A stretch of DNA of 64,000 nt from Escherichia coli (GTDB taxonomy: Bacteria; Pseudomonadota; Gammaproteobacteria; Enterobacterales; Enterobacteriaceae), in the NCBI RefSeq assembly GCF_016026235.1, contig NZ_CP065613.1; one strand, given 5' to 3'. The notes under the pieces are model-generated. The model saw only the letters and a list, made by a program, of their open reading frames with translations, did not search any database and was not told the origin of the DNA. Both the position numbers and the translations under genes were made by a program. Shown in pieces: positions 3,567-60,286 of this stretch. Position 1 is the first letter of the stretch; each line of letters opens with the position of its first letter.

Positions 3567-4385
3567 ATGGCTCGTCTGGCAGCATTTGATATGGATGGCA
3601 CTTTATTGATGCCTGACCATCATTTAGGTGAGAAAACCCTCTCTACTTTGGCGCGACTGCGTGAACGCGACATTACCCTCACTTTTGCCACGGGGCGTCA
3701 TGCGCTGGAGATGCAGCATATTCTCGGGGCGCTATCGCTGGATGCATATTTGATTACCGGCAACGGAACGCGCGTGCATTCTCTGGAAGGTGAACTTTTA
3801 CATCGTGATGATTTACCTGCGGATGTCGCGGAGCTGGTGCTGTATCAGCAATGGGATACCCGAGCCAGCATGCATATCTTCAATGACGATGGTTGGTTTA
3901 CCGGGAAAGAGATCCCTGCGTTGTTGCAGGCATTTGTCTATAGCGGTTTTCGTTATCAGATAATCGATGTCAAAAAAATGCCACTCGGCAGCGTCACCAA
4001 GATCTGCTTCTGTGGCGATCACGACGATCTTACACGCTTGCAGATCCAGCTATACGAAGCATTAGCCGAGCGTGCACATTTGTGTTTTTCCGCCACGGAT
4101 TGCCTCGAAGTGCTGCCGGTGGGCTGCAATAAAGGCGCTGCACTGACGGTGCTGACCCAACATTTAGGTTTATCGTTGCGCGATTGCATGGCCTTTGGTG
4201 ATGCGATGAACGATCGCGAAATGTTAGGCAGCGTCGGTAGCGGATTTATTATGGGCAATGCGATGCCGCAACTGCGCGCGGAGCTCCCGCATTTACCGGT
4301 GATTGGACATTGCCGAAATCAGGCTGTCTCTCACTATTTGACGCACTGGCTGGACTATCCACATCTACCTTATTCCCCCGAATAA
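3567..4385 (+). CDS. cof: HMP-PP phosphatase Cof (HAD superfamily)
   Basis: ORF track 3555..4385; DMDGTLL HAD motif near N-terminus; start at [14 protein letters not shown] by recollection of Cof. Confidence 0.9.
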
Positions 4386-55795: not shown

Positions 55796-56605
55796 TCACC
55801 CCTGCAATATTTTGTCCATCACGCGCCCCGGCAGCAGGCGCTTAAGCACCATTACCGCCCAGGTCACCAGCGTCACCGGATAGCGCATCTTCGGCTTCTC
55901 GCTAATAAAAGCATGGCGTACTTTGTCCACCACCGCTTCCGGTCCCAACGTAAAGCGGGCGGCGATGCCGGGATTTTCGACTGGTTTATCACTTTGCGTC
56001 TGGTTGACGTTGTCGGTGAAGCGAGTACGAATGGGACCGGGTTCGATCAGGCTGACTTTAATTCCGCTGTGGCGCAGCTCCATGCGCAGTGCGTCTGACC
56101 ACGCCTCCAGCGCATATTTACTGGCCGCGTAAGCGCCACGACCCGGCGTGGAGATTAATCCCATCACCGATGATGTCATCACAATACGCCCTTCACCGTG
56201 CGGTAACATCGCGGGTAACAGGCGCATGGTGAGCTGGTGTGCGCCGAAAAAGTTGGCGGAAAACTGCTGTTCCATCTGCGCACGGCTGATGGTGGAAAGG
56301 GGGCCATACATGCCGAATCCGGCATTGTTAAAGATCCCATACAGACAATTATCGGTCAGGGCGATCACCTCGTCGGCTGCGCGATCAACACTTTCTGGTG
56401 AATCCAGATCGATCAACACGCCGGTAAATCCCATGCTGTTCATGCGCTCAACATCATCCGGTTTCCGGCAACCTGCCAGCACATGAAAACCCTGGCGTTT
56501 TAATTCGAGCGCGCTTTCCAGGCCAATTCCACTGGAACATCCGGTAATTAAGACCGATTTTTGCATAACTTTACCTGTCAGGATCTCCGTTGCTTTATGA
56601 GTCAT
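55796..56605 (-). CDS. ybbO: short-chain dehydrogenase/reductase YbbO
   Basis: ORF track 269 aa; TGCSSGIG Rossmann motif, YxxxK active site. Confidence 0.9.
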   Translation of the reverse strand: MTHKATEILTGKVMQKSVLITGCSSGIGLESALELKRQGFHVLAGCRKPDDVERMNSMGFTGVLIDLDSPESVDRAADEVIALTDNCLYGIFNNAGFGMYGPLSTISRAQMEQQFSANFFGAHQLTMRLLPAMLPHGEGRIVMTSSVMGLISTPGRGAYAASKYALEAWSDALRMELRHSGIKVSLIEPGPIRTRFTDNVNQTQSDKPVENPGIAARFTLGPEAVVDKVRHAFISEKPKMRYPVTLVTWAVMVLKRLLPGRVMDKILQG

Positions 56606-57221
56606 GATTTACTAAAGGCTGCAACTGCTTCGCCATCCAGTCGGCAATAAACGGCTGGGCGTCGTGGTTGGGATGAATACCGTCATCCTGCATCCATTGT
56701 GGCTTGAGGTAGACCTCTTCCATAAAAAAGGGCAGCAGCGGAACATCAAACTCTTTGGCGAGTTTGGGGTAAATGGCGCTAAAGGCTTCATTATAACGGC
56801 GACCATAGTTTGCAGGCAGACGTATTTGCATTAACAATGGTTCAGCGTTGGCGGCTTTGACATCCTGCAAAATCTGGCGCAGCGTTTGCTCGGTTTGCTG
56901 TGGCTGAAAACCACGCAAACCGTCATTGCCGCCCAGTTCAACCAGCACCCAGCGCGGCTGATGCTGTTTCAGCAGAGCCGGAAGGCGCGCCAGCCCTTGT
57001 TGCGAAGTGTCGCCGCTGATGCTGGCATTAACTACCGACGTTTTACTCTGCCACTTATCATTCAACAAGGCAGGCCAGGCCGCGCTGGCAGACATTCGAT
57101 ACCCAGCGCTCAGGCTATCACCCAGAATCAATAACGTGTCCGCTGCGGCGGCACGGAAGGTTAACAGGACCAGGAACAGGAAGGGCAAATGCCAGCGGAA
57201 AACATTGTTGAAGTTCATCAT
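56595..57221 (-). CDS. tesA: multifunctional acyl-CoA thioesterase I / protease I / lysophospholipase L1 TesA
   Basis: 208 aa starting MMNFNNVFRWHLPFLFL inside ORF 56595..57251; GDSLS SGNH-hydrolase motif. Confidence 0.93.
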   Translation of the reverse strand: MMNFNNVFRWHLPFLFLVLLTFRAAAADTLLILGDSLSAGYRMSASAAWPALLNDKWQSKTSVVNASISGDTSQQGLARLPALLKQHQPRWVLVELGGNDGLRGFQPQQTEQTLRQILQDVKAANAEPLLMQIRLPANYGRRYNEAFSAIYPKLAKEFDVPLLPFFMEEVYLKPQWMQDDGIHPNHDAQPFIADWMAKQLQPLVNHDS

Positions 57222-57875
57222 CTTAAGAAGTCCGTCGGTCAGGGGGAGCATGAACTCTCCATCCTCACCGGAGTTGAGCTGGTTGTCAAACGTGGCGAGA
57301 CCATCGCACTGGTGGGCGAGTCGGGATCGGGTAAGTCAACCTTGCTGGCGATCCTCGCCGGGCTGGATGACGGCAGCAGTGGCGAAGTGAGTCTGGTGGG
57401 ACAACCGCTACATAATATGGACGAAGAAGCGCGGGCAAAGTTGCGCGCGAAGCACGTAGGCTTTGTTTTTCAGTCATTTATGTTAATTCCTACCCTTAAC
57501 GCGCTGGAAAACGTCGAGCTTCCGGCGCTGCTGCGCGGTGAGAGTAGCGCGGAAAGTCGTAACGGAGCGAAAGCGTTGCTCGAACAGTTAGGTCTGGGTA
57601 AACGTCTGGATCATCTTCCGGCACAGCTTTCCGGCGGTGAACAGCAACGAGTGGCGCTGGCACGAGCCTTTAACGGTCGACCTGATGTGCTGTTTGCCGA
57701 CGAACCCACCGGCAACCTTGACCGCCATACCGGCGATAAAATTGCCGACCTGCTGTTTTCCCTCAACCGTGAGCATGGCACCACGTTGATTATGGTGACC
57801 CACGACCTGCAACTGGCGGCACGCTGCGACCGCTGCTTACGGCTGGTGAACGGGCAGTTGCAGGAGGAAGCATGA
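57189..57875 (+). CDS. ybbA: ABC transporter ATP-binding protein YbbA
   Basis: ORF track 228 aa; Walker A GESGSGKST. Confidence 0.92.
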   Translation: MPAENIVEVHHLKKSVGQGEHELSILTGVELVVKRGETIALVGESGSGKSTLLAILAGLDDGSSGEVSLVGQPLHNMDEEARAKLRAKHVGFVFQSFMLIPTLNALENVELPALLRGESSAESRNGAKALLEQLGLGKRLDHLPAQLSGGEQQRVALARAFNGRPDVLFADEPTGNLDRHTGDKIADLLFSLNREHGTTLIMVTHDLQLAARCDRCLRLVNGQLQEEA

Positions 57876-60286
57876 TTGCACGTTGGTTCTGGCGCGAATG
57901 GCGTTCGCCGTCGCTATTAATTGTCTGGCTGGCGCTAAGCCTGGCGGTGGCCTGCGTGCTGGCGCTGGGCAATATCAGCGATCGCATGGAGAAGGGCTTA
58001 AGCCAGCAAAGCCGTGAGTTTATGGCGGGCGATCGGGCGCTGCGCAGTTCGCGCGAAGTGCCGCAAGCGTGGCTGGAGGAAGCGCAAAAGCGCGGCCTGA
58101 AAGTCGGCAAGCAGCTGACTTTCGCCACCATGACATTTGCAGGCGACACACCGCAGCTGGCGAACGTTAAAGCGGTGGATGATATCTACCCGATGTATGG
58201 CGATCTGCAAACCAATCCCCCTGGCCTGAAACCGCAGGCGGGCAGCGTATTGCTGGCCCCACGCCTGATGGCACTGCTTAACCTGAAAACGGGCGACACC
58301 ATTGACGTGGGCGATGCCACCTTGCGGATTGCCGGAGAAGTGATTCAGGAACCGGATTCCGGTTTTAACCCCTTCCAGATGGCTCCGCGTCTGATGATGA
58401 ATCTGGCGGATGTCGATAAAACCGGAGCCGTGCAGCCGGGGAGTCGGGTCACCTGGCGCTATAAATTCGGCGGCAGCGAGAACCAGCTCGACAGCTATGA
58501 GAAATGGTTGTTACCTCAGCTTAAACCCGAACAACGCTGGTACGGTCTGGAACAGGACGAAGGCGCGCTGGGGCGATCGATGGAACGCTCGCAACAGTTC
58601 CTGCTGCTTTCGGCGCTTCTGACCTTGCTGCTGGCAGTGGCAGCGGTGGCGGTAGCGATGAATCATTACTGTCGCAGTCGCTACGATCTGGTGGCGATCC
58701 TCAAAACACTGGGGGCAGGGCGAGCGCAACTGCGTAAGCTAATCGTCGGTCAGTGGTTGATGGTGCTGACGCTTTCAGCCGTTACCGGTGGGGCGATAGG
58801 CCTGTTGTTCGAAAACGTGTTGATGGTGCTGCTCAAGCCCGTTCTGCCTGCTGCACTACCGCCAGCCAGCCTCTGGCCGTGGCTGTGGGCGCTTGGCACC
58901 ATGACGGTCATCTCGCTGCTGGTGGGGCTACGACCATACCGCTTGTTGCTGGCAACGCAGCCTTTACGCGTATTACGTAATGATGTGGTAGCGAACGTCT
59001 GGCCGCTGAAGTTTTATCTGCCGATTGTCAGTGTGGTGGTTGTGCTGCTGCTCGCCGGATTAATGGGTGGCAGCATGCTGCTTTGGGCGGTGCTGGCGGG
59101 CGCGGTAGTACTGGCTTTGCTGTGCGGTGTGCTGGGCTGGATGCAGCTGAATGTACTTCGCCGCATGACGCTGAAATCGCTACCTCTGCGCCTGGCGGTT
59201 AGCCGCCTGTTACGTCAGCCGTGGTCAACGTTAAGCCAGCTTTCGGCATTTTCGCTCTCCTTTATGCTGCTGGCGCTGTTGCTGGTATTGCGTGGCGATC
59301 TGCTCGACCGCTGGCAGCAGCAGCTACCGCCAGAAAGCCCGAACTACTTTTTAATTAACATCGCCACAGAACAGGTAGCACCGCTAAAAGCGTTCCTCGC
59401 GGAACATCATATAGTCCCGGAATCGTTTTATCCGGTGGTGCGGGCGAGACTGACGGCGATTAACGGCAAGCCGACAGAAGGCAATGAAGATGAGGCGCTC
59501 AATCGCGAACTCAATCTTACCTGGCAAAATACGCGGCCCGATCATAATCCGATTGTCGCCGGTAACTGGCCGCCAAAAGCCGATGAAGTATCGATGGAAG
59601 AGGGGCTGGCGAAACGCTTAAACGTTGCCCTCGGTGATACCGTGACTTTTATGGGCGATACCCAGGAGTTCCGCGCTAAAGTGACCAGCCTGCGCAAAGT
59701 GGACTGGGAAAGTCTGCGGCCTAATTTCTATTTTATTTTCCCTGAAGGGGCATTAGACGGGCAACCGCAGAGCTGGCTTACCAGTTTCCGCTGGGAGAAT
59801 GGCAACGGCATGTTGACGCAACTCAACCGCCAGTTCCCGACCATTAGCCTGTTAGACATTGGCGCGATTTTAAAACAGGTCGGCCAGGTGCTGGAGCAGG
59901 TAAGTCGGGCGCTGGAGGTGATGGTGGTGCTGGTCACCGCCTGCGGTATGTTGCTGTTGCTGGCACAGGTGCAGGTGGGAATGCGTCAGCGTCATCAGGA
60001 GCTGGTGGTGTGGCGCACACTCGGTGCGGGGAAAAAACTGCTGCGTACCACGTTGTGGTGTGAGTTCGCCATGCTTGGGTTTGTTTCTGGCCTGGTGGCC
60101 GCAATTGGTGCGGAAACGGCACTGGCAGTGTTGCAGGCGAAAGTGTTTGATTTTCCGTGGGAGCCAGACTGGCGATTGTGGATTGTTCTGCCGTGCAGCG
60201 GTGCGCTGCTGCTGTCGCTTTTCGGCGGCTGGCTGGGCGCGAGACTGGTTAAGGGTAAGGCGCTGTTCAGGCAGTTTGCGGGGTGA
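57872..60286 (+). CDS. ybbP: ABC transporter permease YbbP (FtsX-like, duplicated)
   Basis: ORF track 804 aa; overlaps ybbA stop. Confidence 0.92.
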   Translation: MIARWFWREWRSPSLLIVWLALSLAVACVLALGNISDRMEKGLSQQSREFMAGDRALRSSREVPQAWLEEAQKRGLKVGKQLTFATMTFAGDTPQLANVKAVDDIYPMYGDLQTNPPGLKPQAGSVLLAPRLMALLNLKTGDTIDVGDATLRIAGEVIQEPDSGFNPFQMAPRLMMNLADVDKTGAVQPGSRVTWRYKFGGSENQLDSYEKWLLPQLKPEQRWYGLEQDEGALGRSMERSQQFLLLSALLTLLLAVAAVAVAMNHYCRSRYDLVAILKTLGAGRAQLRKLIVGQWLMVLTLSAVTGGAIGLLFENVLMVLLKPVLPAALPPASLWPWLWALGTMTVISLLVGLRPYRLLLATQPLRVLRNDVVANVWPLKFYLPIVSVVVVLLLAGLMGGSMLLWAVLAGAVVLALLCGVLGWMQLNVLRRMTLKSLPLRLAVSRLLRQPWSTLSQLSAFSLSFMLLALLLVLRGDLLDRWQQQLPPESPNYFLINIATEQVAPLKAFLAEHHIVPESFYPVVRARLTAINGKPTEGNEDEALNRELNLTWQNTRPDHNPIVAGNWPPKADEVSMEEGLAKRLNVALGDTVTFMGDTQEFRAKVTSLRKVDWESLRPNFYFIFPEGALDGQPQSWLTSFRWENGNGMLTQLNRQFPTISLLDIGAILKQVGQVLEQVSRALEVMVVLVTACGMLLLLAQVQVGMRQRHQELVVWRTLGAGKKLLRTTLWCEFAMLGFVSGLVAAIGAETALAVLQAKVFDFPWEPDWRLWIVLPCSGALLLSLFGGWLGARLVKGKALFRQFAG

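What the first reader, a model, noticed from the sequence alone, without database searches (positions are those of the whole stretch)
57189..57221. Divergent genes tesA and ybbA overlap at their 5' ends
tesA starts at 57221 (minus) and ybbA at 57189 (plus), so the first 11 codons of each are encoded on opposite strands of the same 33 bp. Their promoters must therefore lie inside each other's coding sequence, implying coupled regulation or constraint.
Basis: seen in the sequence. Interest (0 to 1): 0.2.

Follow-up and report, generated by a model that had tools for sequence, protein, structure and literature searches.

The report
tesA–ybbA head-to-head overlapping genes
Two E. coli genes on opposite strands, whose proteins work together as one complex, really do share their first 30-33 bases, and each gene's promoter lies inside the other gene; this was already annotated and published, so it is real but ordinary.

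Summary
The window carries the E. coli ybbO-tesA <> ybbA-ybbP locus. ybbA starts at 57189 (+), and no other start is usable. tesA starts at 57221 or 57218 (-). The coding sequences therefore share 33 or 30 bp, paired codon against codon.

This is the K-12 reference annotation. A 2025 paper on the YbbAP-TesA complex notes the overlap, and a 2025 excludon survey lists the pair.

A published TSS puts tesA transcription at 57253 (45 reads). That is 32 nt upstream of its ATG, inside ybbA codon 22. It fits a promoter TTGACA-17-GAGGAT inside ybbA codons 25-34. The ybbA TSSs (57034, 56847, 56802) are weak and disagree between datasets, but all lie inside tesA.

Synonymous codons of ybbA codons 1-35 are far more conserved than in the rest of the gene (15/24 vs 8/133, p=1e-9).

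In 78 analysed loci, mostly gammaproteobacterial, 59 keep the two start codons within 30 nt of each other or overlapping, often as a shared CATG. The enterobacterial overlap looks like a derived extension of the TesA signal peptide.

Regulatory coupling by transcriptional interference or antisense pairing is plausible but untested.

Verdict: real, explained, already known, low interest.

The parts
56595..57221 (-). tesA CDS, 208 aa. It encodes the periplasmic SGNH/GDSL hydrolase known as thioesterase I, protease I or lysophospholipase L1. Residues 1-26 are the signal peptide.
   Evidence: ORF and translation. The mature region is essentially identical to PDB TesA chains that begin at ADTLL. 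K-12 annotation.
57216..57221 (-). The tandem ATG ATG start codons of tesA (57221 and 57218). They lie opposite ybbA codons His11 and His10.
   Evidence: At least one ATG is kept in 15 of 15 Enterobacterales: ACG ATG in L007 and L008, ATG CTG in Photorhabdus. PGAP uses 57218; K-12 uses 57221.
57189..57875 (+). ybbA CDS, 228 aa. It encodes the MacB-type ABC ATPase of the YbbAP-TesA complex.
   Evidence: PDB 9GE6/9GE8 YbbA, E = 1.5e-144. It is the only canonical start upstream of codon 42.
57189..57221 (.). The 33-bp stretch (30 bp if tesA starts at 57218) that codes on both strands, with the codons aligned antisense to each other.
   Evidence: It is nearly invariant at the DNA level in 10 Enterobacteriaceae.
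57284..57289 (-). tesA promoter -35 hexamer, TTGACA, inside ybbA codons 32-34.
   Evidence: It is the best PWM hit on the minus strand of 56500-57600 (score 10.0; background 0.09 per kb per strand). It lies in the published -50..+1 sequence of the TSS. It is invariant in 12 of 15 Enterobacterales and is TCGACA in the other 3.
57261..57266 (-). tesA promoter -10 hexamer, GAGGAT, 17 nt downstream of the -35, inside ybbA codons 25-26.
   Evidence: The pattern nAGGAT or CAATAT, always with A2 and T6, is kept in all 15 sequences, and the spacer is always 17 nt.
57253..57253 (-). Experimentally mapped tesA transcription start. It is NC_000913.2 position 519021, with 45 reads and a 32-nt 5'UTR.
   Evidence: Kim et al. 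2012, Table S1. The coordinate was converted through the tesA start and checked against the published 51-nt sequence.
57222..57253 (-). tesA 5'UTR, 32 nt, antisense to ybbA codons 12-22. It has only a weak Shine-Dalgarno-like GGA.
   Evidence: SD duplex -3.2 kcal/mol. The core CCCTGACCGACGGAyTTCTTAAG is highly conserved.
57249..57251 (-). An upstream in-frame ATG that would give a 218-aa TesA and a 63-bp overlap. It is not the main start.
   Evidence: It lies only 2 nt from the mapped 5' end, so its apparent GGAG Shine-Dalgarno is not in the mRNA. The ATG is absent in L003, L005 and L009, and a stop codon lies directly upstream of the conserved start in L012.
57178..57185 (+). ybbA Shine-Dalgarno sequence AGGAAGGG. 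It is the reverse complement of the Pro-Phe-Leu codons in the hydrophobic core of the TesA signal peptide.
   Evidence: Sequence; duplex energy -7.0 kcal/mol.
57034..57034 (+). Candidate ybbA TSS (2 reads, 155-nt 5'UTR) inside the tesA CDS. The weak promoter match is TTGCGA-17-TGGCAT.
   Evidence: Low support.
56847..56847 (+). Candidate ybbA TSS from Cappable-seq (U00096.2 position 518615, RRS 2.45) inside the tesA CDS. The weak promoter match is TTGCAG-17-AACAAT.
   Evidence: Low support.
56802..56802 (+). Candidate ybbA TSS (2 reads, 387-nt 5'UTR) inside the tesA CDS. The -10 is TATAAC.
   Evidence: Low support.
57872..60286 (+). ybbP CDS, the permease partner. Its start overlaps the ybbA stop by 4 nt (ATGA).
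55796..56605 (-). ybbO CDS, downstream of tesA in the same transcription direction. It overlaps the end of tesA by 11 nt.

Best explanation
**What it is (shown).** This is a genuine head-to-head overlap of two real genes. tesA encodes a periplasmic lipid hydrolase. ybbA encodes the ATPase of the YbbAP ABC transporter that binds TesA. The two coding sequences share 30-33 bp, read codon against codon. The tesA promoter (-35 TTGACA, 17-nt spacer, -10 GAGGAT) and its 32-nt leader lie entirely inside the first 34 codons of ybbA. ybbA is transcribed from weak, heterogeneous starts 155-390 nt upstream, inside tesA. The first 35 or so codons of ybbA are under strong extra constraint at synonymous sites.

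**Evolution (inferred from comparison).** Back-to-back start codons with essentially no intergenic DNA are widespread in Gammaproteobacteria and probably ancestral. They are often a shared CATG. Enterobacterales lengthened the n-region of the TesA signal peptide (MMNFNNVFRW) by about 8-9 codons into the ybbA N-terminus.

**Mechanistic consequence (inferred, not tested).** The two transcription units converge over at least 220 bp (57034-57253). RNA polymerase at the stronger tesA promoter sits in the path of ybbA transcription. The two mRNA 5' regions, ribosome-binding sites included, are perfectly complementary. Transcriptional interference or antisense pairing could therefore link the output of the two partner genes.
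For: - **Sequence and frames:**
- **Annotation and prevalence:**
- **Protein identities:** (TesA structures begin at the mature ADTLL; YbbA, PDB 9GE6/9GE8; NBD homology starts at residues 4-9).
- **Published statement of the overlap and of the physical complex:**
- **tesA-ybbA among the 16 divergent excludons of MG1655:**
- **tesA TSS:** 45 reads, 32-nt UTR. It agrees to within 1 nt with the PWM-predicted promoter, the best hit in 1.1 kb.
- **Promoter hexamers and 17-nt spacer conserved in 15 Enterobacterales:**
- **Synonymous invariance:** 15/24 vs 8/133, Fisher p = 1.2e-9.
- **Conserved geometry:** tesA sits divergently beside ybbA in 79 of the 80 loci fetched; in 78 the distance between landmarks could be measured. 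The GDS-to-Walker-A distance is 230 nt or less in 58 of 78. Start codons are 30 nt or less apart, or overlapping, in 59 of 78 even with the shortest ATG call.
- **Junctions in other taxa:** CATG, CATATG and CATnATG junctions are shown.
- **Pseudomonas start:** consistent with the published 21-residue signal peptide.
Against: - The tesA start codon has not been mapped directly here. Its Shine-Dalgarno is weak (-3.2 kcal/mol). No translation-initiation profiling data were found.
- The ybbA TSSs have minimal read support and differ between the two datasets, so the ybbA promoter is not defined.
- Conservation of the TesA N-terminal residues is confounded by the constraint from ybbA on the other strand.
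- Some 5'-end synonymous constraint occurs in many genes for translation-initiation reasons.
- No expression data were analysed that show either anticorrelation or coupling. Interference is inferred from geometry alone.
- The 80 loci are the best matches to E. coli TesA. They are taxonomically biased and phylogenetically non-independent.
Confidence: 0.85

Rival explanations
1. The overlap is an annotation artefact. On this view tesA really starts at the TTG at 57188-57186, directly abutting the ybbA ATG. That gives a 197-aa protein, and the two coding sequences do not overlap.
For: Several public gene calls use this kind of start: 194- and 197-aa proteins beginning MPFLFL or MAFLFL, and K. pneumoniae KPN_00472 at 594 nt. 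In many other Gammaproteobacteria the two starts simply abut.
Against: - The TTG has no Shine-Dalgarno (-0.9 kcal/mol).
- It would leave a 15-residue signal peptide with no charged n-region.
- The mRNA starts 65 nt upstream of the TTG, and two ATGs come first.
- At least one of those ATGs is kept in 15 of 15 Enterobacterales. In L007 and L008 and in Photorhabdus the opposing YbbA His codon changes (His to Arg, His to Gln), yet one ATG always survives.
Confidence: 0.04
2. tesA starts further upstream, at ATG 57251. That gives a 218-aa precursor and a 63-bp overlap.
For: The ATG is in frame and is preceded by GGAG at ideal spacing (-8.4 kcal/mol). Some databases hold 218- to 220-aa calls.
Against: The mapped TSS (57253) is 2 nt upstream of this ATG, so the GGAG is not transcribed from this promoter. 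The ATG is missing in Citrobacter sp. L003 (CTG), L005 (CTG) and L009 (GTG). In Rahnella a stop codon lies immediately upstream of MMNF. A near-leaderless initiation could still give a minor isoform.
Confidence: 0.06
3. The arrangement is a selected regulatory device, a divergent excludon. Antisense pairing of the two 5' regions, RNase III cleavage or polymerase collision would set the TesA:YbbAP ratio or make their expression mutually exclusive.
For: - Overlapping transcription was detected in at least 50% of 58 RNA-seq samples.
- The promoters face each other with at least 220 bp of convergent transcription.
- The near-zero spacing persists across Gammaproteobacteria although separation is possible, as the 50-400 nt gaps in Halomonas and Marinobacter show.
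- The gene products form one complex.
Against: - No expression anticorrelation, dsRNA or RNase III data for this pair were seen.
- Partners of one complex would be expected to be co-expressed, not mutually excluded.
- Persistence of the arrangement may only reflect the difficulty of moving promoters that are embedded in coding sequence.
- The lineages with real intergenic gaps show the tight spacing is not essential.
Confidence: 0.25
4. The overlap is a neutral by-product of genome compaction and start-codon drift. It has no function beyond the sequence constraint it creates.
For: The amount of overlap varies between lineages: +33, +2, 0, -1, -10, and -50 to -400 nt. The extra TesA residues lie in the loosely constrained n-region of a cleaved signal peptide. 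The antisense of a purine-rich Shine-Dalgarno naturally encodes Pro, Phe and Leu, which suit a signal peptide.
Against: The tight spacing is retained in 59 of 78 loci over long evolutionary distances. The embedded promoter is strongly conserved.
Confidence: 0.5

Closest known systems
The annotated tesA/ybbA (b0494/b0495) overlap of E. coli K-12 and the YbbAP-TesA type VII ABC transporter-hydrolase locus (PLoS Biol 2025, PMC12646458)
   Same: It is the same locus. The gene order ybbO-tesA <> ybbA-ybbP is identical, the 33-nt overlap is identical, and the DNA from 57105 to 57365 is identical to K-12. [quoted passage not shown]
   Different: The window strain differs only by TesA R186H, YbbA Q180H and 12 other substitutions across the two genes. 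The paper does not analyse start codons, promoters or the spacing in other taxa.
Divergent excludons (ExcludonFinder, NAR 2025, PMC12288877)
   Same: tesA-ybbA is one of the 16 divergent excludons listed for MG1655. The criterion is overlapping transcription of neighbouring divergent genes. The TSS data agree.
   Different: The functional hallmarks of an excludon are mutually exclusive expression and RNase III processing. Neither has been shown for this pair. Here the coding sequences overlap as well as the UTRs, so transcript overlap is unavoidable rather than regulated.
Face-to-face (convergent) promoter pairs that cause transcriptional interference, as in phage 186 pR/pL and similar systems (general knowledge)
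   Same: A strong promoter (tesA, 45 reads) and a weak one (ybbA, 2 reads) fire towards each other across 220-450 bp.
   Different: Interference has not been measured here. Both promoters lie inside coding sequence rather than in a dedicated switch region.
Shared-palindrome start codons (CATG) of divergent genes
   Same: In Vibrio, Psychromonas, Rheinheimera, Dokdonella, Cycloclasticus, Marinobacterium and others, the tesA and ybbA start codons share the central AT of CATG.
   Different: E. coli does not have this form. Its tesA start is displaced about 31 nt into ybbA, in a different relative frame.

Membership tests
Divergent (5'-5') overlapping protein-coding gene pair | Both ORFs are real, expressed protein-coding genes. 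| tested here: met
   TesA and YbbA both match solved structures from E. coli. Both are conserved across Gammaproteobacteria.
Divergent (5'-5') overlapping protein-coding gene pair | The start codons actually used place nucleotides in both coding sequences. | tested here: inconclusive
   The ybbA start is effectively unambiguous. The tesA start at 57221 or 57218 is supported by the TSS, by ATG conservation and by signal-peptide logic. No direct initiation or N-terminal data for the precursor were available.
Divergent (5'-5') overlapping protein-coding gene pair | The dual-coding stretch shows extra sequence constraint. | tested here: met
   Synonymous invariance is 6/6 in ybbA codons 1-11 and 15/24 in codons 1-35, against 8/133 elsewhere.
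Excludon (divergent) | Transcripts of neighbouring opposite-strand genes overlap. | tested here: met
   TSS at 57253 (-) against 57034, 56847 and 56802 (+). The pair is listed as a divergent excludon from RNA-seq.
Excludon (divergent) | Expression of the two units is reciprocal or mutually exclusive. | not testable with these tools
   No expression matrices were available. The read counts of 45 vs 2 in one condition show asymmetry only.
Excludon (divergent) | dsRNA forms and RNase III processes the overlap. | not tested
   The paper's p19 dsRNA validation was not reported per pair in the text that is held. Its supplements are not held.
YbbAP-TesA type VII ABC transporter-hydrolase gene cluster | A MacB-type ATPase gene plus a large permease gene lie adjacent and divergent to an SGNH hydrolase gene that carries a signal peptide. 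| tested here: met
   The same arrangement occurs in 79 of the 80 related loci.
Sigma-70 promoter (tesA P) | -35 and -10 hexamers at 17 +/- 1 nt spacing, with a mapped TSS 6-9 nt downstream of the -10. | tested here: met
   TTGACA-17-GAGGAT, with the TSS 8 nt after the -10. The strict consensus scan missed it because the -10 matches only 3 of 6 positions. Sigma-factor dependence itself was not tested.

The most novel reading that the evidence does not exclude
The near-zero spacing of the tesA and ybbA start codons is conserved across Gammaproteobacteria as a shared CATG, as abutting codons, or as the 30-33-nt enterobacterial overlap. It could be a selected antisense and transcriptional-interference device. 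Such a device would tie the output of the periplasmic hydrolase TesA to that of its membrane partner YbbAP, for example by keeping the transporter scarce whenever the strong tesA promoter fires. That would make it a conserved, protein-complex-specific excludon.
Probability: 0.2. Interest if true: 0.45.

Novelty: already known. Interest (0 to 1): 0.15.

Why it matters
It matters only modestly.

- **Annotation.** The locus is a clean, well-supported example of a divergent coding overlap. Gene callers handle it inconsistently: public tesA calls range from 194 to more than 400 aa.
- **Engineering.** tesA is one of the most heavily engineered genes in fatty-acid biotechnology. Deleting or recoding its 5' end also alters the ybbA N-terminus, the ybbA ribosome-binding site and probably the ybbA promoter(s). 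Conversely, edits in the first 35 codons of ybbA hit the tesA promoter and leader.
- **Biology.** The two products have now been shown to form one complex. The deeply conserved back-to-back arrangement is therefore a reasonable place to test whether antisense or interference coupling sets subunit ratios. That idea is untested.

Tried and rejected
- **Strict consensus promoter scan** of 56500-57900 found no sigma-70 site, because the real -10 (GAGGAT) matches only 3 of 6 positions. A PWM scan recovered it.
- **Rfam search** of 56300-57700 at E <= 1 found nothing, so no known sRNA or leader explains the conservation.
- **Direct start-codon evidence:** the supplements of the tetracycline initiation-profiling paper hold no tesA or ybbA entry.
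- **More TSS evidence:**
  - The Thomason 2015 dRNA-seq paper is not held.
  - The Conway 2014 supplements are not held.
  - The SMRT-Cappable-seq supplements have no entry for these genes.
  - The minus-strand part of the Cappable-seq table and the K. pneumoniae sheet of Kim 2012 were cut when stored.
  - The 1993 apeA cloning paper is not held under the PMC id I tried, which was a guess from memory.
  - The ExcludonFinder supplements are not held.
- **A compensating -10 in Photorhabdus and Providencia (TATAGT):** considered and rejected. At the homologous 17-nt spacing the hexamer is CAATAT.
- **Synonymous-site statistics for tesA beyond about codon 57:** discarded, because indels shift the ungapped comparison.
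- **Terminator-like hairpin inside ybbA (57447-57466):** within chance expectation (1 found, 1.4 expected).

Full report
**1. What is in the sequence.**
Window 55796-60286 carries four genes: ybbO (-), tesA (-), ybbA (+) and ybbP (+). The stretch 56500-58000 is 98-99.9% identical to a single place in 5415 of 5426 complete E. coli genomes, annotated ybbO, tesA, ybbA and ybbP.

On the + strand, ATG at 57189 opens the 228-aa ybbA ORF. On the - strand, the tesA ORF runs 57251..56595 and has in-frame ATGs at 57251, 57221 and 57218.

The two frames are codon-on-codon antisense. ybbA Met1 (ATG) lies opposite tesA His11 (CAT). tesA Met1-Met2 (ATG ATG) lie opposite ybbA His11-His10 (CAT CAT).

The K-12 reference record annotates the same 33-nt overlap (519733..519765). 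A PGAP-annotated strain starts tesA at the second Met, giving 30 nt. The window is identical to K-12 from 57105 to 57365.

**2. Are the start codons right?**

*ybbA.* The ATG at 57189 is the first start after an upstream stop. The only other canonical in-frame start is a GTG one codon before the Walker A glycine, which would delete the N-terminal strands of the ATPase. A good Shine-Dalgarno, AGGAAGGG, sits 3-10 nt upstream (-7.0 kcal/mol). Homology to solved MacB, LolD, BceA and MJ0796 nucleotide-binding domains begins at YbbA residues 4-9, opposite residues 2-8 of several of those proteins. The N-terminus is therefore in register.

*tesA.* Solved TesA structures begin at the mature ADTLL (residue 27), so residues 1-26 form a cleaved signal peptide. 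Three alternatives were examined.

- **The upstream ATG at 57251.** It has an apparently strong GGAG (-8.4 kcal/mol). However, it is not conserved: it is CTG in L003 and L005 and GTG in L009, and in Rahnella a stop codon directly precedes MMNF. The mapped mRNA 5' end is also only 2 nt upstream of it, so the GGAG is not in the transcript.
- **The downstream TTG at 57188.** It would abolish the overlap, and some pipelines use it (194- and 197-aa calls). It has no Shine-Dalgarno (-0.9 kcal/mol) and would leave a 15-residue signal peptide without a charged n-region.
- **The ATG pair at 57221 and 57218.** At least one ATG is kept in all 15 Enterobacterales compared. In some lineages the opposing YbbA residue changes yet one ATG always survives: L007 and L008 have ACG ATG with YbbA H11R, and Photorhabdus has ATG CTG with YbbA H10Q.

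I conclude that the start is 57221 or 57218 and the overlap is 33 or 30 nt. The start is not directly mapped, because the initiation-profiling supplements I could read contain no entry for these genes.

**3. Where transcription starts.**

*tesA.* Kim et al. 2012 (PLoS Genet, Table S1) sequenced 5' ends of primary mRNA. They list one tesA TSS at NC_000913.2 position 519021 (-), with 45 reads, a 32-nt 5'UTR and the upstream sequence TGGTCTCGCCACGTTTGACAACCAGCTCAACTCCGGTGAGGATGGAGAGTT. This maps to window T57253.

I had identified the promoter TTGACA (57289..57284), 17 nt, GAGGAT (57266..57261) from the sequence before reading that table. In a PWM scan it is the best minus-strand hit in 56500-57600. 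Its score is 10.0, a level seen 0.09 times per kb per strand across the window, and its predicted TSS is 57254. The tesA promoter therefore occupies ybbA codons 25-34, and the tesA leader is antisense to ybbA codons 12-22.

*ybbA.* The same table gives two TSSs with 2 reads each: 518802 (window 57034, 155-nt UTR) and 518570 (window 56802, 387-nt UTR). Cappable-seq (Ettwiller 2016) lists + strand TSSs at 518615 (window 56847, RRS 2.45), 518388 and 518168, and none at 5187xx-5189xx. Weak PWM matches precede 57034 and 56847.

All candidates lie inside tesA (or ybbO), none is strong, and the two datasets disagree. The ybbA promoter is therefore embedded in tesA as logic requires, but it is not yet defined.

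RNA-seq analysis of 58 MG1655 samples lists tesA-ybbA among the 16 divergent excludons of E. coli, meaning overlapping transcription in at least 50% of samples.

**4. Constraint.**
I compared 10 Enterobacteriaceae (window plus L002-L010). Among codons whose amino acid is invariant and degenerate, the codon itself is invariant as follows:

| Region | Invariant codons |
|---|---|
| ybbA codons 1-11 | 6/6 |
| ybbA codons 1-35 | 15/24 |
| ybbA codons 36-228 | 8/133 |

The difference between codons 1-35 and 36-228 has an odds ratio of 26 and Fisher p = 1.2e-9.

The constrained block covers three things: the dual-coding 33 bp, the tesA leader (CCCTGACCGACGGAyTTCTTAAG) and the promoter. TTGACA is invariant in 12 of 15 Enterobacterales and is TCGACA in Photorhabdus and Providencia. 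The -10 is nAGGAT or CAATAT, always with A2 and T6. The spacer is always 17 nt.

Some 5'-end synonymous constraint is common in genes generally. It does not usually extend over 35 codons or coincide with a mapped antisense promoter.

**5. Comparative picture.**
A profile of diverse TesA homologues retrieved 80 loci from one-genome-per-species contigs. They are mostly Gammaproteobacteria, with Massilia and Janthinobacterium as betaproteobacterial examples. In 79 of them a ybbA homologue lies divergently beside tesA, nearly always followed by ybbP; in 78 the distance between landmarks could be measured (the 77 fetched loci that have both motifs, plus the window itself).

I used two landmarks, the GDS catalytic motif of TesA and the Walker A glycine of YbbA. 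The distance between them is:

| Taxon | Landmark distance (nt) |
|---|---|
| Enterobacterales | 193-196 |
| Vibrio | 194-198 |
| Pseudomonas | 215 |
| Median of all loci | 215 |
| Halomonas, Marinobacter and a few others | 250-416 |

The distance is 230 nt or less in 58 of 78 loci.

With start codons called by simple rules, 59 of 78 loci have starts that overlap or lie 30 nt or less apart, even when the shortest ATG option is taken for tesA. The junctions are striking:

- **CATG**, with the two start codons sharing AT, in four Vibrio species, Psychromonas, Rheinheimera, Oceanisphaera, Dokdonella, Cycloclasticus, Marinobacterium, Nitrincola and others.
- **CATATG** in Pseudoalteromonas and Aliidiomarina.
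- **CATnATG** in Methylococcaceae.
- **CAT-GGAGAATCCG-ATG** in Pseudomonas. There the second ATG matches the published 21-residue TesA signal peptide, and the tesA Shine-Dalgarno abuts the ybbA start codon.

The lack of intergenic DNA is therefore old and widespread. The enterobacterial 30-33-nt overlap is a derived form. Here TesA has 33 codons before the GDS glycine against about 25 in Vibrio. The extra n-region, MMNFNNVFRW, is written on the antisense of the YbbA N-terminus. This evolutionary reading is an inference. The loci are not phylogenetically independent, and they are the best matches to the E. coli protein.

**6. How it most likely works.**

*Shown.* Two real genes, overlapping coding sequences (with the caveat on the tesA start), the tesA promoter and leader inside ybbA, weak ybbA starts inside tesA, overlapping transcripts, and strong extra sequence constraint.

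*Established elsewhere.* TesA binds YbbP, and the three proteins form a type VII ABC transporter-lipid hydrolase complex. The authors note the partial operon overlap and suggest co-regulation.

*Inferred.* The two units are transcribed towards each other over at least 220 bp (57034 to 57253), and perhaps about 450 bp. RNA polymerase at the stronger tesA promoter sits 64-100 nt inside ybbA, where it can occlude or collide with polymerases transcribing ybbA. The two mRNA 5' regions, both ribosome-binding sites included, are perfectly complementary. This geometry predicts that tesA promoter activity damps ybbAP expression, and that duplex formation could affect both messages. No data seen here test that.

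Neutral persistence is an equally tenable reading. A cleaved signal-peptide n-region tolerates almost any sequence. The antisense of a purine-rich Shine-Dalgarno encodes Pro, Phe and Leu, which suit a signal peptide. Some lineages have opened a 50-400-nt gap.

**7. Comparison with what is known, and novelty.**
The overlap is in the reference annotation, is described in the 2025 YbbAP-TesA paper and is catalogued as a divergent excludon. The tesA TSS has been public since 2012. The finding is therefore already known.

- the mapped TSS matched to a conserved embedded promoter;
- the upstream ATG and the downstream TTG both rejected as main starts;
- the synonymous-site constraint quantified;
- the near-zero start-codon spacing, often a shared CATG, shown to be general in Gammaproteobacteria.

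None of this would surprise a specialist. Interest is low (0.15).

The most novel reading left open is that the conserved spacing is a selected coupling device for the subunits of one complex. I give that about 0.2 probability.

Noticed in passing
window 56595-56605 and 57872-57875: Both flanking gene junctions are also overlaps. The end of tesA and the start of ybbO share 11 nt on the same strand. The ybbA stop and ybbP start share ATGA (4 nt). The whole four-gene cluster has no intergenic DNA.
   Followed up: partly
window 56665 (tesA codon 186) and 57728 (ybbA codon 180): The window strain differs from K-12 by TesA R186H and by YbbA Q180H. The TesA change is mature residue 160, three residues after the catalytic His, in a column that varies among homologues. 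Twelve further substitutions across the two genes change no amino acid.
   Followed up: partly
Public protein clusters for tesA (P0001-P0270); loci L008, L071, L076: Gene calls for tesA orthologues are very inconsistent: 194, 197, 204-210, 218-220 and 286-402 aa. The short calls dodge the overlap by using a TTG. The long calls arise because the frame antisense to ybbA, and in high-GC Pseudomonas even to ybbP, stays open for 160 to more than 480 codons upstream.
   Followed up: partly
window 57178-57185: The ybbA Shine-Dalgarno AGGAAGGG is the reverse complement of the Pro-Phe-Leu codons (CCC TTC CTG) in the hydrophobic core of the TesA signal peptide. A purine-rich ribosome-binding site and a Leu/Phe-rich signal peptide are naturally compatible on opposite strands. 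Vibrio shows the same pattern (AAGGGA opposite TCC CTT).
   Followed up: no
L019, L023, L024, L035 (Vibrio) and L017, L021, L031, L044, L048, L069, L062, around locus position 4000: The tesA and ybbA start codons share the palindrome CATG (2-nt overlap). Pseudoalteromonas and Aliidiomarina have CATATG, and Methylococcaceae have CATnATG.
   Followed up: yes
L011 (Pectobacterium betavasculorum), around locus positions 3900-4150: This locus has a 48-nt longer landmark distance (241 vs 193-196). It has extra residues in both N-termini: TesA MMNFKNVFYVRSFAWRSTRWAGLRKHVFVLLLL... and YbbA MFAKTSPASATPSKTAHVENILEV.... This suggests an insertion inside the dual-coding stretch that lengthened both proteins at once.
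   Followed up: no
window 57447-57466 (+): A terminator-like hairpin followed by a T run lies inside the ybbA coding sequence. The count is within chance expectation (1 found, 1.4 expected).
   Followed up: no
NC_000913.2 position 519490 (about window 57722, +): Kim et al. 2012 list a 3-read TSS inside ybbA, 150 nt upstream of ybbP. It is a possible weak internal promoter for ybbP.
   Followed up: no
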